Source: a virus. Taken from it: a DNA stretch of 64,000 bases. The stretch spans positions 32,001-96,000 of the IMG/VR virus record IMGVR_UViG_3300028840_006907, one strand, 5' to 3'. The position numbers were made by a program, and so were the translations under genes. The notes beneath the pieces were generated by a model. The model worked only from the letters and a program-made list of their open reading frames with translations, did not search any database and was not told where the DNA came from. Positions 31,839 to 52,045 of this stretch are shown piece after piece; positions within the stretch are counted from its first letter, which is position 1; every line of letters starts with the position of its first letter.

Positions 31839-32441
31839 ATGGAACAAGAGATGTTACATGGAATTAATATCATGGAATTCGGGAATACTATTCAGATAGC
31901 TGGTATTATCATGAATAGCGATAGTATGTCTTATTTGATCCCGTTGCCCGATGATGATATCTTGGAAGCAAAGAATTTCCCACTTGATACTGATCAGTGG
32001 AAGAAATTTCTCCGGCAAACAGATCTACTCGAAACGGAAGTTCTTGCCCAAGACGGGGATGGCTTTAAAAAGGCCATACTTCGTAAGAGTGCCCGTCAAG
32101 TTGATTCAAAGATATCTTGGGTAGTCTTTAAACGGGATGGCTATATGTGCCGTTACTGTGGCCGTGATGACGTACCACTTACTGTTGACCATTTGGTGCT
32201 CTGGGAAGATGGTGGTCCAACCATTGAAGAGAATTTGCTTTCAAGTTGTAAAAATTGCAATAAGAAGCGTGGAAGTATGCAGTATGCTGATTGGTTGAAA
32301 TCACAGCGATACAGAAATGTATCGGAAAATCTGTCTGAGGAAATAAAGAGAGCAAATGAAGCTCTTATCTCAACATTAGATGCTATTCCTCGAAAGTTAC
32401 ATATTCCATCACGTGGAGGGAAGAAAAAGAAAAAAAGATAA
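31839..32441 (+). CDS. HNH endonuclease
   Basis: CRYCG ... TVDHLV ... N ... CKNCN arrangement typical of HNH nucleases. Confidence 0.7.
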   Translation: MEQEMLHGINIMEFGNTIQIAGIIMNSDSMSYLIPLPDDDILEAKNFPLDTDQWKKFLRQTDLLETEVLAQDGDGFKKAILRKSARQVDSKISWVVFKRDGYMCRYCGRDDVPLTVDHLVLWEDGGPTIEENLLSSCKNCNKKRGSMQYADWLKSQRYRNVSENLSEEIKRANEALISTLDAIPRKLHIPSRGGKKKKKR

Positions 32442-34340: not shown

Positions 34341-37300
34341 ATGTACTCTATTGATGATTTTATTCAAACTGTTTTTTCATATACTCTTCAGAAACAGAAA
34401 TTCTTCGCAGCAGCAGAACGTGCTTTAAAGAAAAATCTCCAATCCTATATACGCCCCGACTTTTTCGGAACTAGTTCGGGAGATGTCCGACTAGATAATT
34501 TACTTGTATCTCTCGCCAATAGATTGGGTGAAGCTGATGTTGAAGATAAAAGAATTTTTCTTGAAGATGCAGTAAGTGATTTTGTCTCAGAAGAGAAGGC
34601 TGACGAGTTAAGAGCAATCCTTGAAACCAAATTGGAAAGAAAACATAAAATCCCTGAAGAACTAGCTGATAAATTTATCAGTAAATCAGGTTTACTTGTT
34701 GATGAAGAGAAAAAAGAATTTGATCGTGTGAAGAAAGATATGGTCAAATTGATCTCAGGTTTTATTTACGGTTTCTTCGAAAATAAATTTAAAGAATTTG
34801 TACGAGCAAAAAAGAAAAAAGAAGATATCGGTAGAGAAGTAGCCCCGGATCTAGAAGTCCTGCCTGATAGTGAATTAATTGATCAAGCTGAAAAAGAACA
34901 AGAATGGCAAGAAGGTTTAACTAAAGATCTGTTTGGATATATCAATAAAAATGTTCCGGAAAAAAGGCGCTATGCTTATAAAATGATCTTGTTAAAAAGA
35001 TTTATGGTAGCACCAGCTAGTAGGATGGGTTTTGTTGAAATGGCAGAAAAGACAGGAATACCCAAATCATCTCTGGAAGAATGGGAAAAAGATTTGGGCC
35101 GTAGACTTGCTGAATATCTCTCTGCAGGTGGCCTTGGCCCTAAATTCGTTAGTGAGGGTGGCCTTTATAAAAAAGATGTTAAAGTTCCCGATTATAAAGA
35201 TGTTTTTAAAAACAAAGAGAATTCGAATGATTTCAAAGATTTCATGGAAGGCAAACAACCAAAAACCGGTAAACCCATGAGTGAGAAGGTAAAAAAAATA
35301 TTAGAGTTGTTTGCTGAAGGTAAAGATACCAAGGAAATCGAATCACAGACTGATGCGAGTATTGGTCAGATAAAAAAATTAAAAAGTACTCATTTCTCTC
35401 CCTGGTATAAAGAGTGGTATGCTGAAATGCTTAAGGATGTCAGAGAAGCTACAGAACGTATAAAGAAAGCTCTTATGATAATTAATGGTGAGACACCTCC
35501 TCCAGCTTCTCATGAGAAATATGTGAATATGGCAATAGCTAAAAAATACCCTCTTGAACTTACTGTAACTTTTAGTGCCAATTATGATAACCAGGATTTA
35601 ATAAAGGAAAGTGATCGAGTTGATCCGGAAAAAGACCCGGTTGATTTTAAATACAAACATTACCAGGTAAAATTAGAAAGGACCAGTAGACCCCGAATTG
35701 AATATACTTTTGATCAAAAATTAACCGATAAAGGTGATTTTGAAGGTAGCCCTCGATCATCATTGGTCATTGAAGGAAATCCTGGTCATGAAGGTTTGAG
35801 AAGAAGGCTCGATGAATATGTCGAGCAAGAAATGAAACCAGAGGGTATCCTTCCTTACGGTCCTTCGGTAAAGGGTAGAAAACCTGTCCAGATCCCTGTT
35901 GAATATGTAAATGAATCTCTTGATAGTACTAAGACCTATGATGGGTCTAAAAAAAGAAGATATCGTGGATTTATTGATTTCGCTGACAAGTACAAAGGTT
36001 TCATGGTAAAAGACCAACCTCATTTAACCCGGGTTCAGGAAGAAAGTAAAAGGGAAGAGAAGAAATTGTTACCTAAGGGTGGAAAAAATGAAATTCGAAA
36101 ATTGATCCAGCATTTAAAAGAAAATATTGGTGATGAAATGGAAGAGACTACACCCGATAAGAAAAAAGTTGAGGTGTGGAAAAAACAGATTAAAGAATTA
36201 CAGGATCATTTGAAGAAAGATTCTGAAAAAGAAATAGTGGATTTTGTCTCAAAACATAAAGAGAGGTTTAAATTCGCTGTCTCTGAAGAGCGCATGAAAA
36301 ATGTTCGTGAATTGATGAAACTCAGAGAACTAGTAGAAAACCAAGAACAACGATTGTTACAAAGAAAAATGAAAGGTGATCCTAAAGATAAGGATACAGT
36401 TAAACTTAAAGAAGATATAGCAACAAATAAAGATAAAATCACTAAGCTCGAAAAAATCCTTGAAGAAACAAAAGAGCCATTTCCTCCACCAGAATCGGCT
36501 AAAGTTCAAAAGTTATTAAAGGAACTTTCTGATCTCGGTATTAAAGACAGAAAATTAGAAGAATTCCTGACTTCAACTGATCTCCAATTTTTTGTTAACC
36601 AGGTACAAGGTGCTCTGGCCAAGGAAGCACAAGATAATATCGCAGGTGTTAAGAAAAACAAAAATATGAGTGATGAGGAAAAGAAACAGGAATATGAAGC
36701 TATTGAGAGAAAACGTGGTGTAAAGCTGAATAAATTTATCGAGTTGTTTGAAGCTGTACCTGAAGACATGAAAAAACGTCTGGAGAAATATAAAAAGGCT
36801 GATCCCAGTGGGTATAAAAAATTAGAAAAGAAGCATGGGGCTCTTTTAAACTGGGTAAATAATCCTGAAAAAGCCCTCTCTAAAGTAAAACAGAATCTTT
36901 CTACACCGAAAACTCTTGAGGCTCCAAAAGGTAAACAGGAATCAGTGGTACCTATGGAGGAAGAGGATGCTAAATACATGCTCAATTGGCTTGAGGCCCA
37001 GTTACAGGGTTTCGATGTTATAGGAGAAAGATTTGGTCAGGCAGCTTTAAAAGCAGAAGGTTTAAGTCCACAAGAGAGAGTTAAGGTAGAAAAACAATTA
37101 AAAGATACAGAAAAAGAGTTTCAGGATTTACGAAATAGAATAGGTGAAATGGAAGGTAAAGGGAAGGCTACCACTAGTGAAATCAAAGATCTGAAAAAAG
37201 ACATACCGACTTATATGAGAACAATAGAAGGTTTAAAAAGTTCTCTTTCTGATTCAAAAGAATCTCCTGCTATGATTATGGCACAAGTTTTAACTGATCG

Positions 37301-38885
37301 ACTTTCTGATTTCACTAAAATGTACAATCCGTTATCAAAGACTTTATGGTTTAGCCCAAAAACCTATGAGAAGAGAGCAGAAATTGTTACCAGTGAAGAT
37401 GATCCAGCTTTAGCTTCATTGCAAAAGAACATTGCTAAGGATACAGTTTCATTTTCAAAACTCAGCATCTTCGATAAAGAATCCATTAGATCTCTGGCAA
37501 GTACCATCCGGTCAGGTTTATCAAAATTCAAAAAGGAGTTACCAAGAATGGCCTCTTTTAATCCAATCTATTTAACAGTAGAAGAAAAAGCCCTTATGGA
37601 TAAACAAGCTAAGGAAGAAGATCACTTTGAAAAACGTGTTAAATTTGTTTTTCCTGAAGGTGAATTGAATGATGCCAAAAATATGGTAACTCAGCTCAAA
37701 GAGAAGAAATTAGATGATGCATCGAAAAAAGCTCAGAAAGAATTATCAGAATTAATTAAAAATGTCACAAGTGCCTATGATGATTTCGATATAGGTAAAA
37801 TTAAAGCATTGGCAGAAAAAGAGGAGATTTCTGAATCAAAAGCTGCTGTTCGTTTAAAAAGAATAAAAGACTCATTGGCTAAATATGCTCTAAGTCAATT
37901 CATTCTTAAGTGGCAAGATGTCATAGACATGGGATTTAAAGATACTCCAAGAAAGAAAGGACCTTTGGGAGGACCGGAATCCCAAAAATATGATAAAATT
38001 TTGGAAATAATTGAAGAGGATGTACCTGAGTTATTTAAAGAGGCTCCTCCTGAGAAAGAAATAAAAGAAGCTCCTAAAGGCTTACCTACTCCTAAGGAAA
38101 TCAGAGAACGTATCGAAATGGAATTTGAAGAAGGATTTCCAGCACAAAAAGAAAGAGAATACAGAACTCTGAAGGACAAAGGTCATAAATTATTCAAAGA
38201 TCCTTCTGGGGCTGGTGGTGGCGGTGGCGGAAAAGGTAAAAGTCGCCCAAAACCTATAAAGAAACATCCTCCTGCCCATACATATGAAACACTTAAGAGT
38301 AATTTCAAAGAAGCTCTGAAAACAAAATCAGTTCATGACATAGTACTTAGTGAAATAGGCAGGTATTTACATAATGTGAGAAATTATGTGAAAGGTGGCT
38401 CTTATTTCGATGTGGATGATGTTGTTGCTGGAGTTGTCGATGTATTGAAAAATTTTAAAAAAGTCATCAAATCATTAAGAGTAACCATGGATCCAGGAGC
38501 TACTGCAGATATAAAACTGAAAGATGAAAAAGAGGCAAAACAACTTTTTAATAAATTATCAGATATTTACAAATTAATAGATATGATTGCTGCTGATGAA
38601 AGTGGGAAACCTGTTATAAAAATAGGTCCTATACCAGGTGATCTGAGTAAGATAAAAACTCAACGTGGTGAACCCGATACCTGGTTCCCGAAAGGTCTTA
38701 TGGAAGCTGTTCAAGTAAAAAAACGAGAAGAGATTGAAGAAGGAGCAAAAGAGAAAGCTCCTGAAAAGTCAGTTTCAGCAAAAAAAGTATCAGCACAATT
38801 TTTGGCTTTTAAATTAGCACATAAGTTTTCCTTTTCAGATTTACAAAAGATTGAAGGTCTGAAAGAAGATATAGATAAAAAATAA
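34341..38885 (+). CDS. giant K/E-rich protein (1514 aa), function unknown
   Basis: Single uninterrupted ORF; highly charged, probably largely helical; poly-Gly near C-terminus. Confidence 0.6.
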   Translation: MYSIDDFIQTVFSYTLQKQKFFAAAERALKKNLQSYIRPDFFGTSSGDVRLDNLLVSLANRLGEADVEDKRIFLEDAVSDFVSEEKADELRAILETKLERKHKIPEELADKFISKSGLLVDEEKKEFDRVKKDMVKLISGFIYGFFENKFKEFVRAKKKKEDIGREVAPDLEVLPDSELIDQAEKEQEWQEGLTKDLFGYINKNVPEKRRYAYKMILLKRFMVAPASRMGFVEMAEKTGIPKSSLEEWEKDLGRRLAEYLSAGGLGPKFVSEGGLYKKDVKVPDYKDVFKNKENSNDFKDFMEGKQPKTGKPMSEKVKKILELFAEGKDTKEIESQTDASIGQIKKLKSTHFSPWYKEWYAEMLKDVREATERIKKALMIINGETPPPASHEKYVNMAIAKKYPLELTVTFSANYDNQDLIKESDRVDPEKDPVDFKYKHYQVKLERTSRPRIEYTFDQKLTDKGDFEGSPRSSLVIEGNPGHEGLRRRLDEYVEQEMKPEGILPYGPSVKGRKPVQIPVEYVNESLDSTKTYDGSKKRRYRGFIDFADKYKGFMVKDQPHLTRVQEESKREEKKLLPKGGKNEIRKLIQHLKENIGDEMEETTPDKKKVEVWKKQIKELQDHLKKDSEKEIVDFVSKHKERFKFAVSEERMKNVRELMKLRELVENQEQRLLQRKMKGDPKDKDTVKLKEDIATNKDKITKLEKILEETKEPFPPPESAKVQKLLKELSDLGIKDRKLEEFLTSTDLQFFVNQVQGALAKEAQDNIAGVKKNKNMSDEEKKQEYEAIERKRGVKLNKFIELFEAVPEDMKKRLEKYKKADPSGYKKLEKKHGALLNWVNNPEKALSKVKQNLSTPKTLEAPKGKQESVVPMEEEDAKYMLNWLEAQLQGFDVIGERFGQAALKAEGLSPQERVKVEKQLKDTEKEFQDLRNRIGEMEGKGKATTSEIKDLKKDIPTYMRTIEGLKSSLSDSKESPAMIMAQVLTDRLSDFTKMYNPLSKTLWFSPKTYEKRAEIVTSEDDPALASLQKNIAKDTVSFSKLSIFDKESIRSLASTIRSGLSKFKKELPRMASFNPIYLTVEEKALMDKQAKEEDHFEKRVKFVFPEGELNDAKNMVTQLKEKKLDDASKKAQKELSELIKNVTSAYDDFDIGKIKALAEKEEISESKAAVRLKRIKDSLAKYALSQFILKWQDVIDMGFKDTPRKKGPLGGPESQKYDKILEIIEEDVPELFKEAPPEKEIKEAPKGLPTPKEIRERIEMEFEEGFPAQKEREYRTLKDKGHKLFKDPSGAGGGGGGKGKSRPKPIKKHPPAHTYETLKSNFKEALKTKSVHDIVLSEIGRYLHNVRNYVKGGSYFDVDDVVAGVVDVLKNFKKVIKSLRVTMDPGATADIKLKDEKEAKQLFNKLSDIYKLIDMIAADESGKPVIKIGPIPGDLSKIKTQRGEPDTWFPKGLMEAVQVKKREEIEEGAKEKAPEKSVSAKKVSAQFLAFKLAHKFSFSDLQKIEGLKEDIDKK

Positions 38886-38923: not shown

Positions 38924-39682
38924 TTGGAGACATCTGTGAAGTATAGCGTACTTGTACCCTACTATAAACGCCTAGGGCACCTACATAATACCTTTATTTC
39001 CTTTCTACACCATTATTCAGATAGAAATGATTATGAGGTTGTCATAGCAGAAGATTATAAAAATGTCCAGAATAAAAAAGACCATGACGGTCTATCAGAA
39101 ACCATTGAGAAATTCCGTGAAAAAATACCGATAATTCATTTAACTCTTTCTATGGAAACCTGGAATCCAGCTCATGGTTTTAATGAAGCTGCAAAGTGGG
39201 CTTCTGGTGAATATTTCGTTGTAACCAATCCAGAATGTTTCCATCAAGTGAACATACTGGCTGGACTCGATAAAGAATTTGAAGAAGACCCCAATGTCTA
39301 TGTTGTATGTGGTTGTATGAATTATGTCCGTTGTAATTTTTTTATTAAAAACTTTAATGATCTAAATGGAAAATTTCAGAGATGGTACCAACACTCAATA
39401 CATAGAGCAGCCCACTATCATTTCTGTTCAGCTATTTCAAAACAGAATTGGGTAAAAATAGGAGGATTCGATGAAGACTTTGCTATGGGTATAGCCTATG
39501 ATGATGTCGATTTTAAATTAAGCATTCAAAAAGCCAAGATACCCTTTCATATCCGGGATGACCTTCTTACTATACATATTGACCATGGTTCCTTCCCATC
39601 TCCTCCAAATGCTCAGAAATTAGTTAATCGAAATAGAATCACCTATCAAAGAAAATGGGAAGGAAGTAATGAATCTTACTAG
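38924..39682 (+). CDS. putative family-2 (GT-A) glycosyltransferase
   Basis: N-terminal YSVLVPYY and GGFDEDFAMGIAYDDVDF segments resemble GT2 signatures; start codon uncertain (TTG 38924 or GTG 38936). Confidence 0.5.
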   Translation: METSVKYSVLVPYYKRLGHLHNTFISFLHHYSDRNDYEVVIAEDYKNVQNKKDHDGLSETIEKFREKIPIIHLTLSMETWNPAHGFNEAAKWASGEYFVVTNPECFHQVNILAGLDKEFEEDPNVYVVCGCMNYVRCNFFIKNFNDLNGKFQRWYQHSIHRAAHYHFCSAISKQNWVKIGGFDEDFAMGIAYDDVDFKLSIQKAKIPFHIRDDLLTIHIDHGSFPSPPNAQKLVNRNRITYQRKWEGSNESY

Positions 39683-41762
39683 TTATACCGCAGCCGACAG
39701 TATCCCGATAAAATTGATTAAGAACTTTAAATTGTTAAAGTCCATGACAACAAAAGGAGTCATCTTACCAATCCATGTCCAGTTCATACCCACAAATAGA
39801 TGTAACATGAAATGTGGATTTTGTAGCTGTGCTGAAGATGACAGAAAAACAGAAATGTCCCTTAAAAATGCTAAGAAGATCATCAGAAAATTAAAAAAAC
39901 TCGGTACTCAATCCGTAACCATCACCGGAGGAGGAGAACCACTCCTTTATCCTCATCTCCAAGAATTGTTTTCTCTGTTTAAAGATGCCGGGATAAAAAT
40001 CGGTTTTGTTACCAATGGCCTCTTATTAGGTAAATGTACCTATGAAGATGTAACCTGGTGTCGGATTTCTAATTCTGATGAAAGAAAAATGGACATGGAC
40101 TATTATCACACAATAGCTTATGCTGTTGAAGATAACCCAAACGTGGACTGGGCCTTTAGTCATGTCGTTTCTCCAAAACCAAATATCTCCGAAATAAAAC
40201 GGATCATAGAATTTGCCAATCTCCATGATTTTACCCATGTCCGATTAGTAGCTGATCTATTGAATTATAAAGAAGTAGATTTAATGCAGTTAAAAATCAC
40301 TCTTCGAGATGAAAATGTCGATGATGATAAAGTCATCTATCAAAGTAGAAATACCCCGCTCAGAGGCGGAGACTGTTATATATGCTATCTTAAACCCATG
40401 ATAGGGGCTGACTGTAATGTGTACGCTTGTTGTTTAGAGGCTAATGAACCTGTATTAATCCAGAGAAATAACGAAAGGATGTATTTATCTATAAAGGATG
40501 TTGTTCCAGGGGATTATGCTTGTGAATATGGAAAGATTTTAAATGTGTTTCATAAAGAGGGTGAAGAAGGCTTGGAAATAGTTTTGCAAAATAATAGGAC
40601 TATTTATGTTTCGAAAGATCATCTTATGCTTAAATTGACAAACCCTGAAATTAGACATAAGAGAAAGAAGTTATTATCTGACTATGAATTAGATACAATA
40701 GAATCTTCTGAATTAAGAATTGGAGATTTACTTCCGGTCAAATATAAATATGATATTAGTGAAATAAAAGAAGATACTATATCTGAAGAAGAAGCAGAAT
40801 TAATAGGATATTATGTAGCTGAAGGTTGGTCCAATGAACGAACTTGTATAGTTGATAAAAAATATCCTACTAGAACTACCACTATAGGATTTATGCTAGG
40901 GAAAGAGTCAAGAGAATATATAAGAAGATTTGAAGAAATTTGTGATATTTTGAATCTAAATTTTTCTATGACTGAACGTAGAACTGGTATGCAGTATCAG
41001 ATAGGTGCACATAAACCCTACGATGACTTAATTGTACACTGTGGTAATAAAGCAGAATTAAAAAAGATCCCTCCTTTTATTTTAAACGGCTCTGATAAAA
41101 TAAAGTGGAAATTTATTCAAGGCTATTTTGGAGGTGACGGGAATTTTCAAACTCCTTCTAAAAGCTATGATGGTTTTAAAATGAGAATGAGTACTGTCAG
41201 TAGACAACTAGCTAATGATATAATTTATCTCTTTTGTACTTTAAATATTCATGCTTCTATGAGAGTTGAGAGACGTGAAGGAAAAATGATAATAGAAGGA
41301 AGAGAGGTAAATGCTAAAGATCGGTATCATATAAATATAGGGGGAGCCTATAATTTAGAAAAAGCCCCATTCCTAAATGTAATTCAAACAAAAGAAAGAA
41401 GTCCTAAAAGAGCCCTCGGTTTTTTGAAAGATGAGGATAAGGGCATTATGTTTGTACCAGTTAAAGAGATCAGAGAGAAAAAGTTAGGAAAATTAGTAGA
41501 CATTCAAGTGGAAGGTTCAAATAAATTTATATCTTCATTTGGTATAATAGTTCATAATTGTGGCGTCCAGTATGCTCTTAAAAAGCCTTCAAAGAATCTT
41601 CCTAAGAAACTGAGCCTAGGAAGTGCTTTTGATCTTGAGAAGATAATTGAGAACAGTAATAAGCCCCTGGACGGGAGCATGTGTTATCGATGCTATTATA
41701 GTAATTATAACAAGATACTAGGATCCATCCTGGATGATACCGATCATATGGAGTTTGTATGA
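39669..41762 (+). CDS. radical SAM enzyme interrupted by an intein
   Basis: CNMKCGFC (CxxxCxxC) and TGGGEPLL in N-extein; intein blocks described separately. Confidence 0.65.
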   Translation: MNLTSYTAADSIPIKLIKNFKLLKSMTTKGVILPIHVQFIPTNRCNMKCGFCSCAEDDRKTEMSLKNAKKIIRKLKKLGTQSVTITGGGEPLLYPHLQELFSLFKDAGIKIGFVTNGLLLGKCTYEDVTWCRISNSDERKMDMDYYHTIAYAVEDNPNVDWAFSHVVSPKPNISEIKRIIEFANLHDFTHVRLVADLLNYKEVDLMQLKITLRDENVDDDKVIYQSRNTPLRGGDCYICYLKPMIGADCNVYACCLEANEPVLIQRNNERMYLSIKDVVPGDYACEYGKILNVFHKEGEEGLEIVLQNNRTIYVSKDHLMLKLTNPEIRHKRKKLLSDYELDTIESSELRIGDLLPVKYKYDISEIKEDTISEEEAELIGYYVAEGWSNERTCIVDKKYPTRTTTIGFMLGKESREYIRRFEEICDILNLNFSMTERRTGMQYQIGAHKPYDDLIVHCGNKAELKKIPPFILNGSDKIKWKFIQGYFGGDGNFQTPSKSYDGFKMRMSTVSRQLANDIIYLFCTLNIHASMRVERREGKMIIEGREVNAKDRYHINIGGAYNLEKAPFLNVIQTKERSPKRALGFLKDEDKGIMFVPVKEIREKKLGKLVDIQVEGSNKFISSFGIIVHNCGVQYALKKPSKNLPKKLSLGSAFDLEKIIENSNKPLDGSMCYRCYYSNYNKILGSILDDTDHMEFV
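40431..41558 (+). mobile_element. intein with LAGLIDADG-type homing endonuclease domain (boundaries approximate; N-terminal Cys at 40428 or 40431)
   Basis: Starts CLEANEPVLI, ends GIIVHN followed by Cys; internal IGYYVAEGW and IQGYFGGDGNF motifs. Confidence 0.6.
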
Positions 41763-42310
41763 TCCGTTATAAAGAGATCTATGAACGAGTATTTGACATA
41801 CCTCATTATTCCAGAAACCAAGACCGAAAGATTACCTGTTCCCAAGTACATAACTATTTAATAGGAACTGAAAAATCTATCATTGATATAGGATCGGGGC
41901 GTGGGCCTGTTCTTATAGAACTGCTGAATCATTTTCAGAGATCTCAGATATTGTCTTGTGATTTAAAAAAGTTCCATGATATTGAAGTCCCGTTCCTGAA
42001 ACTGGATTTAACTGAGTTCAAGGATCGGGAAGCAATATTGAGGGTCTTTCCACAGTTTGATTTCTTAACCTGTTTTGATGTCCTGGAACATATCGAGCGA
42101 CAGGAATTGCACGCTATTCTCAGATTCTTTAAAGAGCTATCTAAAAAACATCTAATTATTGTAGCAAATCACTCTGATAACTGGGGCCAGGAATTACATT
42201 TAATACAGGAGCCCATGGACTGGTGGGAGGAAAGTTTTGGTGAATATTTTAAGATATTGGATAAAAAGAGTATTCATAATGATAGAGCGTATGTATTCCA
42301 TTTAGAATGA
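41759..42310 (+). CDS. class I SAM-dependent methyltransferase
   Basis: IIDIGSGRG (motif I) and FDVLEHIE. Confidence 0.6.
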   Translation: MIRYKEIYERVFDIPHYSRNQDRKITCSQVHNYLIGTEKSIIDIGSGRGPVLIELLNHFQRSQILSCDLKKFHDIEVPFLKLDLTEFKDREAILRVFPQFDFLTCFDVLEHIERQELHAILRFFKELSKKHLIIVANHSDNWGQELHLIQEPMDWWEESFGEYFKILDKKSIHNDRAYVFHLE

Positions 42311-42320
42311 GAGGTATAGG

Positions 42321-42572
42321 ATGTTTAAAGGACTGATCAATTCGATTAAGGAAGATAACGGTAATGCTTCTTCTACCAGATTTATTATGTATGGTACTGG
42401 AGCTGTTGTCTTAGGGACATATCTTTTTCATAACATACTTTCTGCAGTAAGAGGAGGAGAATTTATTGATTTCCCAGTAAACAGTGTCGTTGTTCTTGGT
42501 ATCGTTCTGACGGGTAAAGTTACACAGAAATTCGCTGAGTTTAAAGGTAGCAATGGGAAGACAGATGCTTAA
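42321..42572 (+). CDS. small membrane protein
   Basis: ORF track; two hydrophobic segments. Confidence 0.35.
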   Translation: MFKGLINSIKEDNGNASSTRFIMYGTGAVVLGTYLFHNILSAVRGGEFIDFPVNSVVVLGIVLTGKVTQKFAEFKGSNGKTDA

Positions 42573-42976: not shown

Positions 42977-43540
42977 TTATAGGGATTTATTTGCGTGTGG
43001 AAAAGGTTTAACCACAATTTCTCGATCCAGGAACTTGCACAATGTTGCATATTTATTTTTATCTTCAATATCTATGAGTAGGAATCGGGGTTTGTCTTTG
43101 AAGAACTCTATGATTTCTTCATTCCTCTTATGGTATCGATCTATTATTTCAGCTTTGTTCTCTGGAATAAATTCAATCTTCCATATCCAGTTATACATGA
43201 CTTGTGCATTTTTTAATTGAATCCAATTTAAAACTGAGTTAAACCATTTCTCGGGATCCCGGGTCAAATGAATGAAGTAGGCATCGGGGAACATATCATA
43301 GAGCATTTCATGACTCCCTTCTAAATTGAAAGGGATATCACAAAATAAATTGGCTGTATATTTTCTTAATCGAAAAGCTTTAAAAAGTTGAATCATATTT
43401 TCTTTGGAATGTTTAAGTCCACCTCCAAGATAGAGTCCATATGCTTTAGTAGAGGGAATAGGGTTGAAACCAAGCTTTTTTATGGCTTGTTCCATAGAGG
43501 TTGTACCGGTTTTATTTGAGCCTATACAAAAGACTTTCAT
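42977..43540 (-). CDS. putative sulfotransferase
   Basis: GSNKTGTTS (PAPS 5-prime phosphate loop-like) and LTRDPEKWFNS (RDP motif). Confidence 0.55.
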   Translation of the reverse strand: MKVFCIGSNKTGTTSMEQAIKKLGFNPIPSTKAYGLYLGGGLKHSKENMIQLFKAFRLRKYTANLFCDIPFNLEGSHEMLYDMFPDAYFIHLTRDPEKWFNSVLNWIQLKNAQVMYNWIWKIEFIPENKAEIIDRYHKRNEEIIEFFKDKPRFLLIDIEDKNKYATLCKFLDREIVVKPFPHANKSL

Positions 43541-43983: not shown

Positions 43984-44019
43984 TCTAGGAATGTAAAGTA
44001 TTAGAGGATTATTAAGGGG

Positions 44020-47018
44020 AGGGAAACCCCGCTCAGATGCAGGGAAGAAGATTTCATTAAGAAGTTTTAGGAAGAGCCCCGCAGAGGAGGAACCTCGCAA
44101 GATGCGGGGAAAAGGAACTTCAGGCAATTGGCTGGGATTAGCCCCGCGAAGGTGCGGGGAAAACAGTTTCCATGAACTATATTAGGGAGAGCCCCGTTGA
44201 CACGGGGAAAAACCCGTCTTTACTTAGTGAGATCGAGGAAGGAACAGCCCCGTTGATACGGGGATAAAATAATATGACTTTTACGAATCCTCTAGGGACA
44301 GCCCTGCAGAGTGCAGGGAAAAGTAACGTCTGGGAATTGTTTAGGATTAGCCCCGCGAAGGTGCGGGGAAAGCCATAGATTTTATATTGACACAGGAAAA
44401 ACCCCGGTATAGTCCGGGGAAAAGTACGTAATCAAGATGTAAGAGGATTAGACCCGGCGAGTCCGGGAAAAGATTGGCCCAATCACTATTAAGTAGGGTG
44501 GGATAGCCCCGCAGAATGCAGGGAATAGATGCCTCACTTCATACCACTGCGTCAACCCCAGTAGAGTCCGGGGAACATGAGTGTAAATCTCTGTCGTAGG
44601 TTCAACCCCGGAGAGATCCAGGGGAAATGGGTACAACTTTGTGTACAAGGGGTAGCCCCGGAGAAATCCGAGGAAAATGAGTGTAAATCTGTGTTGAGGG
44701 TCCAGCCCCGCTCAGTGCAGGGAATATTAAGGGTCAAAACCGGTTGCCCCTGCGTCAACCCCGGTGAAGTCCGGGGAACATGAGTGTAAATCTCTGTGGT
44801 AGGATCAACCCCGCAGAGTGCAGGGAAAAATTGAACTTTTTAATCAACCCTGTAACAGCCCCGGAGTCAGTTTTGACAAGTCCGGGGGAATATCACTTCG
44901 TAAAGGAGTGGCTGTCAAGGGGGCAACCCCACAGAGATGTGGGGGAAAGTAAGCCAACGTTCCGGCATAGGCATAGCCCCTGAATTTACAGAGGGCAATT
45001 TTTCCAGTGTCCAGAAGAAGATGCAGGGAGAACCCCGGAAAGTCCAGGGGAAAATGTGTCACAGAACAACTCTTTGTGATCTCCAGGGTGAACCTCGCAG
45101 AGGTGCGGGGGAAAAGTGTCAATGAATACCAGTATGAGTCAGCCCCGGTATAGCCCGGGAATAATTACTTCTAGTCTGATAGAAGGTGCAACCCCGGGAA
45201 GTCCGGGGAAATCGGTCATAGCCATCTGGACCAGGAAGAACCCCGGTGAGATCCGGGGAAAAGGACGTTTAAATCCTGACATAGTAGCTAACTGAGGCGT
45301 AGCTCCGGTCGGGTCAGCCCTGCAGAGAGCAGGGAACAAACATAGGTAATAAATCGGCACGTGACAGCCCCGCAGAGAGGCGGGGATATATAGCGTGAGT
45401 TGCAGGGTAAGGTTCAACCCTTGTTTACCAAGGGAAAAATACCGGCAGATAAGAATTTAGGATGACCCCCGGTGAAAGTCCGGGGAAAATAATTAATACG
45501 CAAAACAGCAGGGCCAGTCCCGCGAGATGCAGGGAATGTTCAGCCAGTTTGTGTAATATTTCAGGAGACGGTGGTGCAACCCTGTCAAGGACAGGGATAT
45601 GCAACATCTGTGGCTCTACGAGGATCAGCCCCGGCAAGTCCGGGGAATTATCTTTTTATAAATGCCAAAAATAACAGTTGGGAGGGGCCAATTCCGCTGA
45701 TGCAGAAAGACATTTCATAATTAATATATTTATGGAAGAGCCCCGGTGAAATCCGGGGAAGTCAAGTAATTACAGCTCGCTGACCACTGGGGGTAGCCCC
45801 GGTAAGATCCGGGGAAAAGTTTGTTTTGAAACAAACGCTAGGAACAGCCCCGCTCAGGTGCGGGAGAATCACTGCATATTTGGTTAATGGCCCCCCTGAG
45901 TCAATCCCGCTCAGGTGCGGGGAAAATAAAGAGATAGACTAATTCAATATGCAGGAAGAACCCCGCTATATGCAGGAAAATTTAAAAAGTATGGATATCT
46001 CCTTGAGTCAACCCCGGAGATCCAGGGAAATGTAGGCACTCGTTGTCCTTTGTCGAAGTGTGAAGGGCAAACCTCGTTGATACGAGGAACAAATTTAGTT
46101 TTACTTTTGAATAAAAGTGGTCAAGCCCCGCTCAGGTGCAGGGAATAGATAAGTATACCGACGATAGCCAGGACAGCACCTGTGGTTTAGCCCTGCATGT
46201 GCAGGGAATAGTTGAGTTGAAGATTGAAGAAAAAGATAAAGTAGGGTCAGCTCTGCATGTGCAGAGAATAGCCTTTCTTCAAGCGTTGACTTGGGAGTAG
46301 GTGGGGATCAGCCCTGCACATGCAGGGAATAGAATGGTGAATCAAATTCCATTTTGTCAAAGAACGGCGACAGCCCTGCCAGTGCAGGGAATATGATTTT
46401 AACGATGGTAAAATTGGGAAGGGGTCAGCCCTGCACATGCAGGGAATAGTCGCTAGTTCAAATCCAATCGCCCCGACAGGATCAGCCCTGCATACGCAGG
46501 GAATAGAAAATACTGACGATAAACTAGCGATATGGGATCAGCCCTGCATACGCAGGGATATAGCTTGACGAATGGCCGTTTTAATGCCAGGAGTAACCCC
46601 GCTGCGAGGAATAGTCATTTCAAATATATAGGTAAAGCCCCGCGAAAGAGCGGGGGTATAATATGGCGGATTTTGTTCTATTGGTGGAATCCGGGCCATC
46701 CCCGTAGATTGACACGGGGAGATCTTTTAGAAATCTACCAAGGTGCCTTTCCGGAGTCATCCCCGTATATACGGGGGAGATTTCAATTCAGGGAATTTCG
46801 GTACAAAATTGGTCGGTTTATCCCCGTATACACGGGGAATATTGTTTCAATAGGGCATAGCAGATCTAGGATCGGGGAATCCCCGCAGGGGCGGGGAACA
46901 TCTCGGATTTATTAATCAAATTCAAACGTTTTTCGGGGAATCCCCGCAGGGGCGGGGAACATTGTTTTAAGAGGTGGTAGTTACCTCGTAGGGGAATCCC
47001 CGCAGGGGCGGGGAACAT
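44020..47018 (-). CRISPR. CRISPR array 1, roughly 50 repeat-like units, strongly heterogeneous; leader-proximal repeat ggggaatccccgcaggggcggggaacat (28 nt, 3 identical copies)
   Basis: Periodic hairpin repeats with 23-33 nt spacers; leader-proximal copies at 46874, 46935, 46991; minus-strand reading matches the I-E TTCCCCGC-N4-GCGGGGAT form. Confidence 0.8.
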
Positions 47019-47127
47019 ACTAAGTCATAATGCCATTCAAATCAAAGGTTTATAGGAACCCTAATTTTCTACCAAAGAAAAATGTACTTGTCATGTATAA
47101 ATGTCAAAGAGCGTCAGAGAGAAATCC
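47019..47127 (-). promoter_or_regulatory. CRISPR leader 1, with a ~55-bp core shared with leader 2
   Basis: accctaattttctaccaaa...tataaatgtcaaagagc shared with 54587..54683; contains TTGACA on minus strand. Confidence 0.5.
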
Positions 47128-49359
47128 CTAGTGGATATACCGAATCCATTCATATCGAATTTTCATCGTTTTATAAGGAGCTTTTTTTCTCCCTGGAAAT
47201 ATGTTTCCTTCAAAAAGGAAAAATTTTTGAACAATTTTAAATTCAGCGTTTGATGGTGTCAAGCTCTGTGGTGCATAATCCGAACGCCAGTAATTATTAC
47301 AATATATAAATTTTTCTTCTCTGTCTTTTTGTATAAGGCCCGGAAACACCACTAAAACTATCTTTTCGTTTTCAATAACAATATCCCCTTGATAAATAGC
47401 TATTTCTAAATCCAGACCATCCTGCTCTATCACACGAGCATATTTCGAGAGTTTCCCATCAATCTTTACTTTAGCTTTAGGGGGAATATCAAAAGTTATC
47501 CATTCACCTTTTATGTCCTTAATGCTTTGAATAGGTTTTTTAACTGGAATTTCTTGAAAGACATGATCTTGGTATTCTGCTTTTTTAAGGATTTCTCCAT
47601 CTTTTTCCATATTAAGCAATAAAGCCTTTTCCATGATGTCTTTAAGTTCATAGAGATCTTTTTCAGTTAAGGGCTCTTTTGTTCCGAATACGATGGAACC
47701 TACATTCTCTAATCGAGCGATTTTATCAAAACCCTGTTTCCGGACAAAGTCTATGGTAATATGTTCTATTTTTCTATTTCTTGAAAGTCTTATGATTCTT
47801 ACAAATTCAGTTTTAATTGTGTCTTTGAAATTATCAAAACTTAAATGATCTTCTACGTAGGGATGATACAAATCCGCTATAAGACTTAATAAAATTTCTA
47901 TGTCTTCAGGTTTATCCTGTTTACGGTTGTAATCATAAGCTTTAATAATTTCTTGTCTCATTTCCATTAATATATCAGGAGCCATTATTTCACTTAAACT
48001 GGTAGATCCTTTTTTGTCCCGATAAAAGGGAGCTGTTGGAAGTAAGGGAATCCTGATAGCAGCACAAAGTTCTGACATTACAATTGAGGTTAAGAACAAA
48101 TTCAATCTGTCTGAATATAATGCCCTGATATTATTACGTTCTTCTTTTTTAATAGGTGGAACATAAATGTATAACCATATTTTATCTTTTTTAGGGTAAC
48201 ATCTGAAAATACGAAACATTATTTGAGAGAAGGTCACCTGACTCTTTCCATAACTTGTATTATGTAAAACAGCAGCAGGAGGCCAATCATACCCTTCATA
48301 GAATATTCTGCAAGATACGGCGACCCAGTATTTTTTATGATTACGTCTCAATAACTCTCTATTTTTTTTCTGAGTTTCCGGTGTGACTAAATCCAGTACT
48401 TTGGACGCAGGATATATTTCGTGAATAGCTTTTAAATATTTTTTAAGGGTTCCTTCCTCTCTGAACCGGTTCCCCATGTCAGGTAATATGACAATGTGTC
48501 TTTGATCTTTGTGCTCTTTCATATATCTAATGATCTGAGTAAGGGGATCTTTCCTATAGTGAGTGAAACGGAAATTGAATTCTTTGATTTTTATGATTGA
48601 GAGATAGTCATTTAATGGGATAACCCATTTTTCAAAATGATGTTTATAAGCATTGGGGACTATTTCTCCTCTGTCTGTGCGGTGGTAAGTAGCTGTATAA
48701 AAATTTACGTTACAAGTAGGTTCATGGATGGTACATACATCTCTGACAAAATCACCCAAATGAGTGGAATCTAGTGGGGTTGATTTTGAATGATGGCATT
48801 CATCTACATGTACAGTTAAATTTCTAAGGGCTTTCTTTTTTTCATAGTTGGTTAATTTTTCCCAGGTCATGACAAACCCTCTATGGGTAGCTGTAGCAAT
48901 AGGGCCTGTTATATGTTTTTCATTGTACGGGTATTTTCGAGGATCTGCTAAAAGGAATTCTTTAAGTCCTTTAATGGATTGAGGGTTTTCACTATTGAAT
49001 TTATGTTCTTTTGGTACTTCCCACAATCTTACCATACCTTTATATTTGATTTTTATTTGTCTATTTTGGGATCTGCAGAAATTTTCACCTATTTCTATTG
49101 TTGGTGCGATAAAGATATGTTTTCGAGTATTTTTAGATATTATGATTTCATCCAGGGATATGCATACTGCTAAAAAAGTTTTGCCGACTCCCCCTGGTGC
49201 ATCAAAGATCATGTATCTGAATTTTTTCCCATATTCTTTTGCATTGCATTGCCAGCCAGAGGGTATCATGATCCCTGATTCAAGTTTTTTATTATAGGTA
49301 CCAAGGTCAACCGGTTCTATTTTAATAGATTGCTGGAAAAGCGGTAATAGCTTTTTCAT
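47128..49359 (-). CDS. cas3: SF2 DExH helicase, Cas3-like, without HD nuclease domain
   Basis: Motif I FDAPGGVGKT, motif II VDECHH, motif III TAT, motif VI-like QIMFRIFR; sits between cas6e and leader 1; GAGAGGA SD. Confidence 0.5.
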   Translation of the reverse strand: MKKLLPLFQQSIKIEPVDLGTYNKKLESGIMIPSGWQCNAKEYGKKFRYMIFDAPGGVGKTFLAVCISLDEIIISKNTRKHIFIAPTIEIGENFCRSQNRQIKIKYKGMVRLWEVPKEHKFNSENPQSIKGLKEFLLADPRKYPYNEKHITGPIATATHRGFVMTWEKLTNYEKKKALRNLTVHVDECHHSKSTPLDSTHLGDFVRDVCTIHEPTCNVNFYTATYHRTDRGEIVPNAYKHHFEKWVIPLNDYLSIIKIKEFNFRFTHYRKDPLTQIIRYMKEHKDQRHIVILPDMGNRFREEGTLKKYLKAIHEIYPASKVLDLVTPETQKKNRELLRRNHKKYWVAVSCRIFYEGYDWPPAAVLHNTSYGKSQVTFSQIMFRIFRCYPKKDKIWLYIYVPPIKKEERNNIRALYSDRLNLFLTSIVMSELCAAIRIPLLPTAPFYRDKKGSTSLSEIMAPDILMEMRQEIIKAYDYNRKQDKPEDIEILLSLIADLYHPYVEDHLSFDNFKDTIKTEFVRIIRLSRNRKIEHITIDFVRKQGFDKIARLENVGSIVFGTKEPLTEKDLYELKDIMEKALLLNMEKDGEILKKAEYQDHVFQEIPVKKPIQSIKDIKGEWITFDIPPKAKVKIDGKLSKYARVIEQDGLDLEIAIYQGDIVIENEKIVLVVFPGLIQKDREEKFIYCNNYWRSDYAPQSLTPSNAEFKIVQKFFLFEGNIFPGRKKAPYKTMKIRYEWIRYIH

Positions 49360-49444
49360 TGTCTTTTTCCTCTCAAATAAGTCCTGGAAAGCCTTTTCAG
49401 GGGCTTTCCAGGATTAATGTACTGTGTATTCTATATCAACACTT

Positions 49445-49600
49445 TCAATCGTTTTTATCAATCTCCGTGGCTAATACCGACATAAATGACATTCCGGTTC
49501 CTCCTGGTAATTCAATAATAGAAGGTCTTTTGATGTTCTCTTCTAAATTCCTAGAAGCGAGTTGCCAAGAATAGGCTTTTATAGTTTTTGTATTATTCAT
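49445..49600 (-). CDS. small ORF (51 aa) between cas6e and helicase, unknown
   Basis: ATG at 49598-49600 with TGGAGA SD; no motif. Confidence 0.25.
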   Translation of the reverse strand: MNNTKTIKAYSWQLASRNLEENIKRPSIIELPGGTGMSFMSVLATEIDKND

Positions 49601-49628
49601 TTTAAAATCTCCATATAAAAGGTTTATT

Positions 49629-50910: not shown

Positions 50911-50933
50911 AATATTATAACTCCTGGTAACAA

Positions 50934-52019: not shown

Positions 52020-52045
52020 AAATACTCCTTGATATTTATTATTTA

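What the first reader, a model, noticed from the sequence alone, without database searches (positions are those of the whole stretch)
40428..41558. Intein with LAGLIDADG homing endonuclease inside a radical SAM gene
The 697-aa ORF has a radical SAM N-terminus, then a segment starting with Cys (CLEANEPVLI), carrying IGYYVAEGW and IQGYFGGDGNF endonuclease motifs, and ending VDIQVEGSNKFISSFGIIVHN followed by Cys. That is the block A / LAGLIDADG / block F-G layout of an intein. Spliced product would be about 320 aa. Phage inteins usually sit in replication or packaging genes, so this host gene is unusual.
Basis: partly seen in the sequence, partly recalled or inferred. Interest (0 to 1): 0.7.

Follow-up and report, generated by a model that had tools for sequence, protein, structure and literature searches.

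The report
Self-splicing intein inside a radical SAM gene
A radical SAM enzyme gene on a very large phage-like element is interrupted by a typical mobile intein, a self-excising protein segment with its own DNA-cutting enzyme, sitting exactly between two invariant cysteines; it is real and cleanly delimited, but an ordinary intein in a less usual host gene.

Summary
ORF 39669-41762 (697 aa) is a radical SAM enzyme interrupted in frame by a 376-aa intein (aa 255-630, nt 40431-41558).

- **Intein motifs:** all canonical blocks are present: Cys1, S-K-D-H, two LAGLIDADG motifs (E385, D490), block F Asp, His-Asn, and Cys+1.
- **Clean insertion:** 886 homologues of about 325 aa read straight through YAC|CG. 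A syntenic relative (L002, 71% nt identity) lacks exactly the intein DNA.
- **Recurrent allele:** at least 14 distinct inteins occupy this site in divergent family members, and every one keeps the splicing residues.
- **Horizontal spread:** intein and extein similarities disagree (60% versus 41% for the nearest relative). The inteins are also AT-richer than their host genes.
- **Functional host gene:** the extein keeps 52 of 52 family-invariant residues, so splicing is needed.

The enzyme is SPASM/twitch-like and sits in a glycosyltransferase, methyltransferase and sulfotransferase cassette. The split Cys-Cys pair probably belongs to an auxiliary Fe-S site; this is inferred, not shown.

An intein in a radical SAM enzyme has a precedent (Pyrococcus abyssi MoaA). 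Verdict: a new member of a known kind, of moderate to low interest. Splicing control by redox state or Fe-S binding is a speculative extra.

The parts
39669..41762 (+). Precursor gene: radical SAM enzyme interrupted by an intein (697 aa plus stop)
   Evidence: Single open frame. Pfam Radical_SAM, LAGLIDADG_3 and Intein_splicing. The exact protein is on record on large contigs of 388,651 and 469,617 bp.
39669..40430 (+). N-extein (aa 1-254): radical SAM core, GGGEP SAM-binding motif, invariant C131, C236 and C254 (the -1 residue)
   Evidence: Pfam PF04055 on aa 40-120. Alignments A1 and A3. AF2 pLDDT above 90.
39801..39824 (+). CX3CX2C motif (C45-N-M-K-C49-G-F-C52) that binds the radical SAM [4Fe-4S] cluster
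   Evidence: Read directly from the sequence. These Cys are 100% conserved in 79 homologues.
40431..41558 (+). Intein (376 aa; Cys255 to Asn630), class 1, with an embedded LAGLIDADG homing endonuclease
   Evidence: Clean gap in homologues. Missing from syntenic L002 at the DNA level. PDB profile hits to PI-PkoII, V-ATPase, gp41-1, TFIIB and PI-SceI inteins. GC3 is 0.20 against 0.36 in the extein.
40431..40454 (+). Block A (CLEANEPV); Cys255 is the Cys1 nucleophile
   Evidence: Cys1 is invariant in 14 of 14 same-site inteins.
40602..40631 (+). Block B (IYVSKDHLML); S315 and H318 form the (T/S)xxH motif
   Evidence: S61, D63 and H64 (intein numbering) are invariant in 14 of 14. Aligns with block B of the gp41-1 intein.
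40800..40829 (+). LAGLIDADG motif 1 (LIGYYVAEGW), catalytic acid E385
   Evidence: Aligns with LLGYYVSEGY of PI-PkoII.
41112..41144 (+). LAGLIDADG motif 2 (FIQGYFGGDGN), catalytic acid D490
   Evidence: Pfam LAGLIDADG_3 on aa 481-542, 35.1 bits against a cutoff of 22.5. D236-G237 (intein numbering) is invariant in 14 of 14.
41493..41534 (+). Block F (LVDIQVEGSNKFIS), Asp611
   Evidence: D357 (intein numbering) is invariant in 14 of 14. Aligns with YVYDLSVEDNENFL of PI-PkoII.
41541..41558 (+). Block G (GIIVHN): penultimate His629 and terminal Asn630
   Evidence: H375 and N376 (intein numbering) are invariant in 14 of 14.
41559..41762 (+). C-extein (aa 631-697 plus stop). Cys631 is the +1 nucleophile and the second Cys of the invariant CC pair. 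Contains the invariant CxxC (C672, C675).
   Evidence: Alignments A1 and A3. Synteny with L002 resumes at 41559.
38924..39682 (+). Context: family-2 glycosyltransferase gene whose end overlaps the radical SAM start by 14 nt
   Evidence: Pfam PF00535, E=3.7e-9. The same neighbour is present in L002, L003 and L005.
41759..42310 (+). Context: SAM-dependent methyltransferase gene whose start overlaps the radical SAM stop by 4 nt
   Evidence: Pfam Methyltransf_23 and _12. A methyltransferase also follows the intein-bearing gene in L001 and lies nearby in L005. Absent from L002.
42977..43540 (-). Context: sulfotransferase gene
   Evidence: Pfam Sulfotransfer_4, E=5.6e-25. Conserved in L002 and L005.

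Best explanation
The 1128-nt block at 40431-41558 encodes a canonical class-1 intein with an embedded two-motif LAGLIDADG homing endonuclease. It is inserted in frame between the two cysteines of an invariant Cys-Cys pair in the C-terminal, Cys-rich domain of a SPASM/twitch-like radical SAM enzyme.

Inferred mechanism, standard for the class:
1. The gene is translated as a 697-aa precursor.
2. Cys255 undergoes an N-S acyl shift.
3. Cys631 attacks the resulting thioester (trans-thioesterification).
4. Asn630 cyclises, assisted by His629, and releases the intein.
5. An S-N shift joins the exteins into the 321-aa enzyme with the native ...YAC-CGVQYAL... sequence.

The freed 376-aa intein is a site-specific endonuclease. 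It cuts intein-less alleles at the TGT|TGTGG junction region, so that repair copies the intein in (homing). This explains its patchy, horizontally transferred distribution among large phage-like elements.

Shown here: the anatomy, the clean insertion, the empty-site allele, the recurrent same-site alleles, the conservation of catalytic residues, the intein/extein discordance, the compositional difference, and the intact extein. Inferred: actual splicing, endonuclease activity, and the enzyme's role. The likely role is sugar or glycan modification, given the glycosyltransferase, methyltransferase and sulfotransferase neighbours and the fold similarity to DesII and BlsE. The CC pair is likely part of an auxiliary Fe-S or catalytic Cys site.
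For: - **Anatomy:** ORF and boundaries. Pfam domains in the expected order.
- **Clean insertion:** 886 intein-free homologues, best 73% identity over 100% of the spliced sequence. There is a single 376-residue gap between invariant C254 and C631-G632.
- **Empty site:** DNA synteny with L002 (71% identity) breaks at 40433 and resumes at 41559. Syntenic L003, from a 512-kb contig, is also intein-free.
- **Recurrent allele:** an exhaustive HMMER search found 13 representatives at E<1e-30. Eleven of them (P0125-P0135) are radical SAM homologues with the intein at the same xPC|C...HN|CG junction. P0121, P0122/L001 and L075/L077 add to these.
- **Catalytic residues:** C1, S61, D63, H64, D236-G237, D357, H375, N376 and C+1 are invariant in 14 inteins of about 41% mean identity.
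- **Intein class:** the family profile matches solved inteins PI-PkoII (3e-23), V-ATPase (2e-21, blocks B to G), gp41-1 (3e-13), TFIIB and PI-SceI.
- **Horizontal transfer:** the intein is 54-60% identical to relatives whose exteins are only 39-43% identical. The closest intein-bearing extein (52%) carries a 40% intein. Across 91 pairs r=0.25.
- **Composition:** the intein is AT-richer than its extein in 4 of 4 loci.
- **Functional host gene:** the extein keeps 52 of 52 invariant and 39 of 40 near-invariant positions.
- **Enzyme class:** AF2 model of intein-free P0001 has pLDDT 93. Foldseek finds DesII, SkfB, SuiB, BlsE, PqqE, anSME and BtrN.
Against: - No experiment shows splicing or DNA cleavage.
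- The window protein alone scores 33.6 bits on Pfam Intein_splicing, 2.2 bits under the curated cutoff.
- The AF2 precursor model is poor over the Hint parts (pLDDT 25-60 for aa 256-367 and 559-630), so the fold was not confirmed structurally.
- No recent transfer event (a near-identical intein in different exteins) was seen. The nearest intein is only 60% identical.
- Assigning the CC pair to an Fe-S site rests on Cys spacing and fold class only. Sequence profiles align only the N-terminal core to solved enzymes, and there is no Pfam SPASM hit.
Confidence: 0.9

Rival explanations
1. The intein splices, but splicing is conditional. With Cys at -1, 1 and +1, and the junction lying within a probable auxiliary Fe-S or redox-active Cys site, oxidation (disulfides among C254, C255 and C631) or metal/Fe-S binding could hold the precursor unspliced. 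The oxygen-labile enzyme would then mature only under reducing conditions. This would be a regulatory add-on to the basic explanation.
For: - Three consecutive junction cysteines are present, and the CC pair is 100% conserved.
- The SPASM/twitch-like fold class uses C-terminal Cys for auxiliary clusters.
- Documented precedents exist. The P. abyssi MoaA intein (also in a radical SAM enzyme) is trapped by a Cys-3:Cys1 disulfide. The Pab PolII intein is trapped by a Cys1:Cys+1 disulfide (PMC10663303; PMC3922620).
Against: - Nothing was tested here.
- Cys1 and Cys+1 are simply the commonest intein nucleophiles, and inteins generally target conserved sites, so the arrangement needs no regulatory explanation.
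- The MoaA-type Cys at -3 is absent (-3 is Tyr).
- Most family members (74 of 76 viral loci) work without any intein.
Confidence: 0.15
2. The splicing domain is active but the homing endonuclease is no longer functional. The intein would be a fixed, vertically inherited passenger in this lineage rather than an actively mobile element.
For: - The nearest relative is only 60% identical, so there is no sign of very recent transfer.
- Some family members have altered LAGLIDADG motifs: P0133 has Lys in place of the motif-1 acid, and P0128 and P0135 have atypical motif 2.
- The exact protein recurs unchanged on several large contigs.
Against: - In the window copy both catalytic acids (E385, D490) are intact.
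- D236-G237 and many endonuclease-domain residues (R183, T185, K211, K225, S257, R291) are invariant across 14 inteins. That indicates selection on the nuclease.
- Close syntenic relatives carry empty sites, and intein and extein phylogenetic signals disagree.
Confidence: 0.2
3. The intein is a decayed remnant that cannot splice, and the radical SAM gene is effectively a pseudogene.
For: There is no experimental evidence of splicing. The Pfam Intein_splicing score is just under the cutoff.
Against: - The reading frame is uninterrupted over 697 codons.
- All splicing residues are intact and invariant in the family.
- The extein retains 52 of 52 invariant residues.
- The gene start and stop overlap its neighbours in operon fashion.
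Confidence: 0.03
4. The segment is a native accessory domain of this enzyme, or a free-standing or intron-encoded LAGLIDADG gene mis-read as in frame, and not an intein.
For: None beyond the presence of a LAGLIDADG domain, which also occurs in intron-encoded and free-standing endonucleases.
Against: - Homologues lack the segment entirely and join seamlessly at CC-G.
- The segment is in frame, with Hint blocks A, B, F and G flanking the nuclease.
- Rfam found no group I or group II intron.
- The boundaries are Cys...His-Asn|Cys.
Confidence: 0.01

Closest known systems
LAGLIDADG-containing class-1 inteins such as PI-PkoII (Thermococcus kodakarensis Pol intein, PDB 2cw7), V-ATPase inteins (PDB 7qsu, 7qss) and PI-SceI (PDB 1vde, 1ef0)
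   Same: - A Hint splicing domain split by a two-motif LAGLIDADG endonuclease.
- Cys1, a (T/S)xxH block B, a block F Asp, His-Asn at the C-terminus and a Cys+1 nucleophile.
- Profile E-values of 3e-23, 2e-21 and 1e-7.
   Different: - Different host protein and insertion site.
- Sequence identity is low (about 25-30% over the nuclease core).
- The host is a radical SAM enzyme of a large phage-like element rather than a polymerase or ATPase.
Pyrococcus abyssi MoaA intein (Callahan et al. 2011, as described in PMC10663303 and PMC3922620)
   Same: An intein residing in an oxygen-labile radical SAM enzyme, with N-extein cysteine(s) close to the catalytic Cys1.
   Different: - The MoaA redox trap uses Cys-3:Cys1. 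Here -3 is Tyr and the neighbouring Cys is at -1.
- The enzyme family is different: only the N-terminal core aligns with MoaA.
- Whether the two insertion sites are homologous was not tested.
- The MoaA host is an archaeon, not a phage-like element.
Other phage inteins: P1/RCS47 Dmt methyltransferase, Aeromonas phage PS1/PS2 thymidylate synthase, EBPR siphovirus methylase, PHROG 26446 (NrdD)
   Same: These are the nearest matches in sequenced phages. tblastn aligns query residues 255-631, exactly the intein plus Cys+1. PHROG 26446 matches aa 270-557.
   Different: - Only about 25% identity.
- The hosts are DNA and nucleotide-metabolism proteins, the usual phage intein niche (PMC5050341). The present host looks like a glycan or sugar-modifying enzyme.
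SPASM/twitch radical SAM enzymes acting on sugars or peptides: DesII (8hzv), BlsE (7vob), BtrN (4m7t), SkfB (6efn), SuiB (5v1q), anSME (4k36)
   Same: - The host enzyme has the CX3CX2C motif and the partial TIM-barrel core.
- It has a Cys-rich C-terminal extension.
- Foldseek E-values of 1e-12 to 5e-7, TM 0.5-0.64.
   Different: - Sequence identity is 14-21%.
- There is no Pfam SPASM hit.
- The invariant C-x17-CC-x40-CxxC pattern and the extra invariant C131 define a separate, uncharacterised family.

Membership tests
Intein (Hint-domain protein-splicing element, class 1) | Nucleophile (Cys or Ser) as first residue, block A | tested here: met
   Cys255 (CLEANEPV). Invariant in 14 of 14 same-site relatives.
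Intein (Hint-domain protein-splicing element, class 1) | Block B (T/S)xxH motif | tested here: met
   S315-K-D-H318. S61, D63 and H64 invariant. Aligns with block B of the gp41-1 intein.
Intein (Hint-domain protein-splicing element, class 1) | Blocks F and G: block F Asp, C-terminal His-Asn, followed by a Cys, Ser or Thr +1 nucleophile | tested here: met
   D611, H629-N630 and C631. All invariant in the family.
Intein (Hint-domain protein-splicing element, class 1) | In-frame insertion at a conserved site that is absent from orthologues, whose removal restores the native sequence | tested here: met
   A 376-aa gap between invariant C254 and C631 in 11 and 79 homologues. The DNA-level empty site is seen in syntenic L002.
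Intein (Hint-domain protein-splicing element, class 1) | Significant match to curated intein models or solved inteins | tested here: met
   Pfam PF14890 scores 33.6 bits (cutoff 35.8) for the single sequence. The family profile against PDB inteins gives E=3e-23 to 1e-7 and covers blocks B to G. Relatives P0121, P0122 and P0125 carry PF14890.
Intein (Hint-domain protein-splicing element, class 1) | Hint fold | tested here: inconclusive
   In the AF2 precursor model the Hint segments have pLDDT 25-60, because the alignment is shallow there.
Intein (Hint-domain protein-splicing element, class 1) | Autocatalytic protein splicing | not testable with these tools
   Supported only indirectly: the extein keeps 52 of 52 invariant residues.
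LAGLIDADG homing endonuclease | Two LAGLIDADG motifs, each ending in a catalytic acidic residue (monomeric type) | tested here: met
   LIGYYVAE385GW and FIQGYFGGD490GN. Pfam LAGLIDADG_3 scores 35.1 bits, above the 22.5 cutoff. Aligns with both motifs of PI-PkoII.
LAGLIDADG homing endonuclease | Mobility signature: presence/absence polymorphism at one site, and element phylogeny discordant with the host gene | tested here: met
   Empty sites in L002 and L003. 2 of 76 viral loci are occupied. Intein and extein identities are discordant, r=0.25. The intein is AT-richer than its extein in 4 of 4 loci.
LAGLIDADG homing endonuclease | Site-specific cleavage of the intein-less allele | not testable with these tools
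   The candidate target is the L002 junction ...GTGTATGCTTGC|TGTGGAATTCAG....
Radical SAM superfamily (host enzyme) | CX3CX2C cluster motif and a Pfam PF04055 match above threshold | tested here: met
   C45-x3-C49-x2-C52. PF04055 scores 59.9 bits, above the 29.5 cutoff. The GGGEP motif is invariant.
SPASM/twitch subclass of radical SAM enzymes (host enzyme) | C-terminal Cys-rich domain that ligates an auxiliary [4Fe-4S] cluster | tested here: inconclusive
   Foldseek top hits are SPASM/twitch enzymes. The invariant C236, C254, C255, C296 and C299 are spaced C-x17-CC-x40-C-x2-C.
MoaA-type redox-trap intein | N-extein Cys at -3 forming a CxxC-like disulfide with Cys1 | tested here: not met
   The N-extein ends ...N-V-Y-A-C, so -3 is Tyr. 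Cys is at -1, with a non-conserved Cys at -6.
MoaA-type redox-trap intein | Same insertion site as the P. abyssi MoaA intein | not tested
   The primary paper (PMC3087850) is not held, and no MoaA-intein sequence was retrieved.

The most novel reading that the evidence does not exclude
The intein is more than a parasite: it acts as a post-translational gate. It splits a vicinal Cys-Cys pair that is probably part of an auxiliary Fe-S or redox-active site, and its own nucleophiles (Cys1, Cys+1) sit beside Cys-1. Disulfide formation or Fe-S/metal binding at this triple-Cys junction could hold the precursor unspliced until the infected cell is reducing and Fe-S-replete. Maturation of an oxygen-labile, phage-encoded glycan-modifying radical SAM enzyme would then be tied to host physiology. 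This would be a phage counterpart of the P. abyssi MoaA redox trap.
Probability: 0.12. Interest if true: 0.6.

Novelty: new member of a known kind. Interest (0 to 1): 0.33.

Why it matters
- **Annotation:** the true product is a 321-aa radical SAM enzyme plus a 376-aa homing endonuclease, not a 697-aa fusion. None of the public sources that hold this sequence, or the three intein-bearing relatives checked, gives it a name.
- **Phage inteins:** it extends the known range of intein host genes on phage-like elements beyond replication and packaging functions. The host here is an auxiliary, probably glycan-modifying, Fe-S enzyme.
- **Homing studies:** the finding supplies a natural trio of occupied allele, syntenic empty allele and about 14 diverged same-site inteins. 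That is good material for studying homing among huge phage-like elements.
- **Uncharacterised enzyme family:** the insertion site marks the invariant CC pair as functionally critical in a widespread family (886 or more homologues; 76 IMG/VR loci).
- **Possible tools:** the intein and its endonuclease could have biotechnological use, as a Cys/Cys splicing junction with a minimal CC scar and as a new LAGLIDADG specificity.

Tried and rejected
- **Native domain hypothesis:** rejected by alignments A1 and A2.
- **Group I/II intron or another RNA element:** no Rfam hit anywhere in the window.
- **Structural confirmation of the Hint fold:** the AF2 precursor model is too poor over the intein.
- **Aligning the CC motif to known auxiliary-cluster ligands by sequence:** the profile against PDB aligned only the N-terminal core.
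- **Nucleotide-level relatives among sequenced phages:** none found by megablast. The neighbouring 1514-aa protein has no tblastn hit in phages.
- **Proving the window is phage:** PHROG and Pfam scans of about 35 ORFs gave only unknown-function PHROGs, GP88, DUF932, HNH and Cas genes, with no capsid, terminase or portal gene. The window's own contig was not recovered from IMG/VR.
- **Literature:** no paper describing an intein in this radical SAM family was found. The Callahan 2011 MoaA paper is not held.
- **DNA information content around the empty site (62 alleles):** it only reflects codon-position conservation (TGTTGTGG..CAGTA) and does not define the endonuclease target.
Full report
**1. 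Observation.** The window has one open reading frame at 39669-41762 (+), 697 aa. The inserted segment runs from Cys255 (CLEANEPVLI...) to Asn630 (...GIIVHN) and is followed by Cys631. That is nt 40431-41558, 376 aa, and conceptual removal leaves 321 aa. The start (40428) is one codon early, because it includes Cys254. Intein-free homologues keep two adjacent cysteines (YACC-G), so Cys254 must stay in the extein.

Pfam finds three domains in the expected order:
- Radical_SAM on aa 40-120 (E=4.6e-16).
- LAGLIDADG_3 on aa 481-542 (35.1 bits, cutoff 22.5).
- Intein_splicing up to aa 630 (33.6 bits, 2.2 bits below the cutoff).

**2.
- The spliced 321-aa sequence finds 886 proteins at E<=1e-3. The listed ones are about 320-350 aa, the best is 73% identical over 100% of the query, and none of the best 120 listed carries the insert.
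- Aligning the full precursor with 11 of them, and later with 83, gives a single gap of exactly 376 residues between invariant C254 and invariant C631-G632.
- The closest homologue, P0001, lies on contig L002. This contig is syntenic with the window: a 1540-aa giant protein, GT2, radical SAM gene, sulfotransferase, 743-aa helicase and a Cas gene.
- blastn shows collinearity at about 71% identity up to window position 40433, resuming at 41559. L002 is therefore a natural empty-site allele that lacks precisely the intein DNA.
- A second syntenic relative, L003, on a 512-kb contig, is also intein-free.

**3. Is it an intein?** All class-1 splicing blocks are present:
- Block A: Cys255.
- Block B: IYVS315KDH318LML.
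- Block F: LVD611IQVEGSNKFIS.
- Block G: GIIVH629N630, followed by Cys631.

Two LAGLIDADG motifs, LIGYYVAE385GW and FIQGYFGGD490GN, lie between blocks B and F.

A word-indexed search with the intein found four relatives. An exhaustive HMMER search of 1.84 billion representatives found 938 at E<=1e-3 and 13 at E<1e-30. Eleven of the top hits (P0125-P0135, 625-696 aa) are radical SAM homologues with the intein at the same xPC|C...HN|CG junction. So are P0121 and P0122. P0122 is really a full 664-aa ORF in L001 whose start the gene caller placed too late.

Across 14 distinct same-site inteins with about 41% mean identity, the following residues are invariant (intein numbering): C1, S61, D63, H64, D357, H375, N376, C+1, and the second LAGLIDADG D236-G237.

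A profile of this family matches solved inteins:
- PI-PkoII, 3.4e-23.
- A V-ATPase intein covering profile positions 37-362, 1.9e-21.
- gp41-1, N-terminal splicing domain, 3e-13.
- TFIIB intein, C-terminal blocks, 1e-8.
- PI-SceI and PI-PfuI, about 1e-7.

tblastn against sequenced phages aligns exactly residues 255-631 to the inteins of P1/RCS47 Dmt and to inteins in thymidylate synthase and methylase genes.

The one weak point is structural. The AF2 precursor model is confident for the exteins (pLDDT above 90) but poor for the Hint segments.

**4. Mobility.**
- *Patchy distribution.* The radical SAM family occurs in 76 IMG/VR viral loci. Only two carry the intein (L075 and L077, identical to P0126). 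L077 is from the same metagenome, 3300017963, as the window's own 388,651-bp contig.
- *Discordant similarities.* The window's intein is 54-60% identical to those of P0125, P0121 and L001, whose exteins are only 39-43% identical. Its closest intein-bearing extein (P0129, 52%) carries a 40% intein. Its closest exteins overall (58-73%) have none. Over 91 pairs the two identities correlate at r=0.25.
- *Composition.* In all four loci examined the intein is AT-richer than its extein. GC3 values are 0.20 versus 0.36, 0.18 versus 0.25, 0.36 versus 0.60, and 0.12 versus 0.18. In the window its GC3 is below all 35 same-size windows of neighbouring genes.

These are the classic marks of a homing element. 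No very recent transfer was seen.

**5. Is the host gene alive?** The window's extein retains 52 of 52 columns that are invariant in 79 intein-free homologues, and 39 of 40 near-invariant ones. Its start overlaps the GT2 gene and its stop overlaps the methyltransferase gene. The identical protein recurs on several large contigs, up to 469,617 bp. A gene under this much constraint makes sense only if the intein is removed. Splicing competence is therefore strongly inferred, but it is not shown.

**6. What is the host enzyme, and what does the site mean?**
- The AF2 model of intein-free P0001 is excellent (pLDDT 93).
- Its best PDB neighbours are SPASM/twitch-type radical SAM enzymes: DesII, SkfB, SuiB, BlsE, PqqE, anSME and BtrN.
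- Outside the CX3CX2C motif, six cysteines are 100% conserved: C131, C236, C254, C255, C296 and C299 in spliced numbering. Their spacing is C-x17-CC-x40-C-x2-C.
- From my own knowledge of twitch domains (for example BtrN, C-x18-C-x43-C-x2-C), this looks like an auxiliary [4Fe-4S] site plus spare catalytic cysteines.
- This is inference only. No sequence alignment to solved C-terminal domains was obtained, and model coordinates could not be inspected.
- The gene's conserved neighbours are a glycosyltransferase, a methyltransferase and sulfotransferases, in the window and in L001, L002, L003 and L005. In L005 the cluster lies a few genes downstream of an HK97-type capsid-like gene.
- Together with the similarity to DesII and BlsE, this suggests a sugar or glycan-modifying role.

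The intein thus sits, as inteins typically do, in the most conserved and probably catalytic part of its host.

**7. Comparison with what is known.** By every sequence criterion tested, this is a member of the class-1, LAGLIDADG-containing inteins.
- *The host is less usual.* The mycobacteriophage survey lists terminase, methylase, primase, portal, thymidylate synthase, helicase, nucleotidyltransferase and RecB hosts (PMC5050341). A full-text search found no description of an intein in this radical SAM family.
- *A radical SAM host is not unprecedented.* The P. abyssi MoaA intein is a textbook case of a redox-trapped intein with a Cys-3:Cys1 disulfide (PMC10663303; PMC3922620). The window intein does not meet that trap's defining feature, since -3 is Tyr. 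It does have Cys at -1, 1 and +1, and Cys1:Cys+1 disulfide control is also documented for Pab PolII. Conditional splicing is therefore a legitimate but untested possibility.

**8. Genome context.** The element is very large (389-470 kb contigs) with about 34% GC. It has no tRNA in this window. Most ORFs are orphans, with a few PHROG families of unknown function, GP88, DUF932 and an HNH gene. It also carries a type I-E-like Cas gene set. No capsid, terminase or portal gene lies in the window, and its contig was not found in IMG/VR. 'Huge phage' is therefore plausible, but it is not demonstrated here.

**9. Verdict.** The finding is real, precisely delimited and correctly interpreted. It is a new member (a new host family and insertion site) of a well-known kind of element, with unusually good comparative support. 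Interest is moderate to low. The main open question is whether the triple-Cys junction in an Fe-S enzyme makes splicing depend on redox state or cluster availability.

Noticed in passing
window 44000-47020: ORF-free stretch with about 50% GC in a 34% GC genome. It holds 35 perfect GC-rich 5-bp-stem hairpins (10.9 per kb, against 0.31 per kb elsewhere), with median spacing of 58 nt. The stem sequences vary (CCCCG, CCCTG and others) while pairing is kept, and the hairpins usually end ...GGGGAA. The stretch grades into a regular short array of TCGGGGAATCCCCGCAGGGGCGGGGAACAT repeats at 46759-47018. It looks like a CRISPR-like array with highly diverged repeats, or repeat-mimic hairpins. Syntenic L003 has 67 such hairpins in 4.4 kb, while L002 has few. 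No Rfam hit.
   Followed up: partly
window 47128-53989 (- strand): Type I-E-like Cas gene set next to the repeat region. It comprises a 743-aa ResIII/DEAD helicase (no HD domain detected), a Cas6e-like protein (PF08798), Cas5, Cas7 (PF09344) and Cse1/Cas8e (PF09481). No Cas1 or Cas2 was seen among the ORFs scanned. The same set is conserved in L002, L003 and L004.
   Followed up: partly
window 34341-38885 (+): A 1514-aa ORF immediately upstream of the glycan-modification cassette has no Pfam, PHROG or phage tblastn match. It is conserved in synteny as 1540 aa in L002 and 1779 aa in L003.
   Followed up: partly
window 41784-42369 versus L002 10991-11186: The methyltransferase gene (41759-42310) that overlaps the radical SAM stop codon is absent from the otherwise syntenic L002. 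A methyltransferase does follow or neighbour the intein-bearing genes in L001 and L005.
   Followed up: no
P0138 (metagenomic protein, 729 aa): A different radical SAM protein carries a LAGLIDADG intein-like insert at another site, immediately before the GGGEP SAM-binding motif. Its ends are non-canonical (...IEWS|IDGDEP... and ...ILCFD|TGGGEP), with no Cys1 and no His-Asn. It may be a second radical SAM insertion point or a degenerate intein.
   Followed up: no
P0137 (metagenomic protein, 619 aa): A related intein (34% identity) sits in a host that is not a radical SAM enzyme. It starts CPK|CLDQDE and ends ...ILTKN|CG, with Lys replacing the penultimate His. This suggests the intein lineage has jumped to an unrelated extein.
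   Followed up: no
window 61306-62025 (-): A second, short (239 aa) radical SAM-like ORF matches PHROG Fe-S oxidoreductase and radical SAM families over its N-terminal ~100 residues only.
   Followed up: no
window 31839-32441 (+): A 200-aa ORF carries an HNH endonuclease domain according to the precomputed Pfam hits on the identical contig L007. A homologue is at the same place in L002. This may be another homing-type nuclease in the region.
   Followed up: no
L001 3164-5158; L003 10001-10783: Public gene calls truncate the N-terminus of this radical SAM family. P0122 is called from an internal GTG although a full ATG-initiated 664-aa ORF with the CX3CX2C motif exists. P0067 (260 aa) likewise starts after the cluster motif. 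Such truncated calls could hide family members from domain-based searches.
   Followed up: partly
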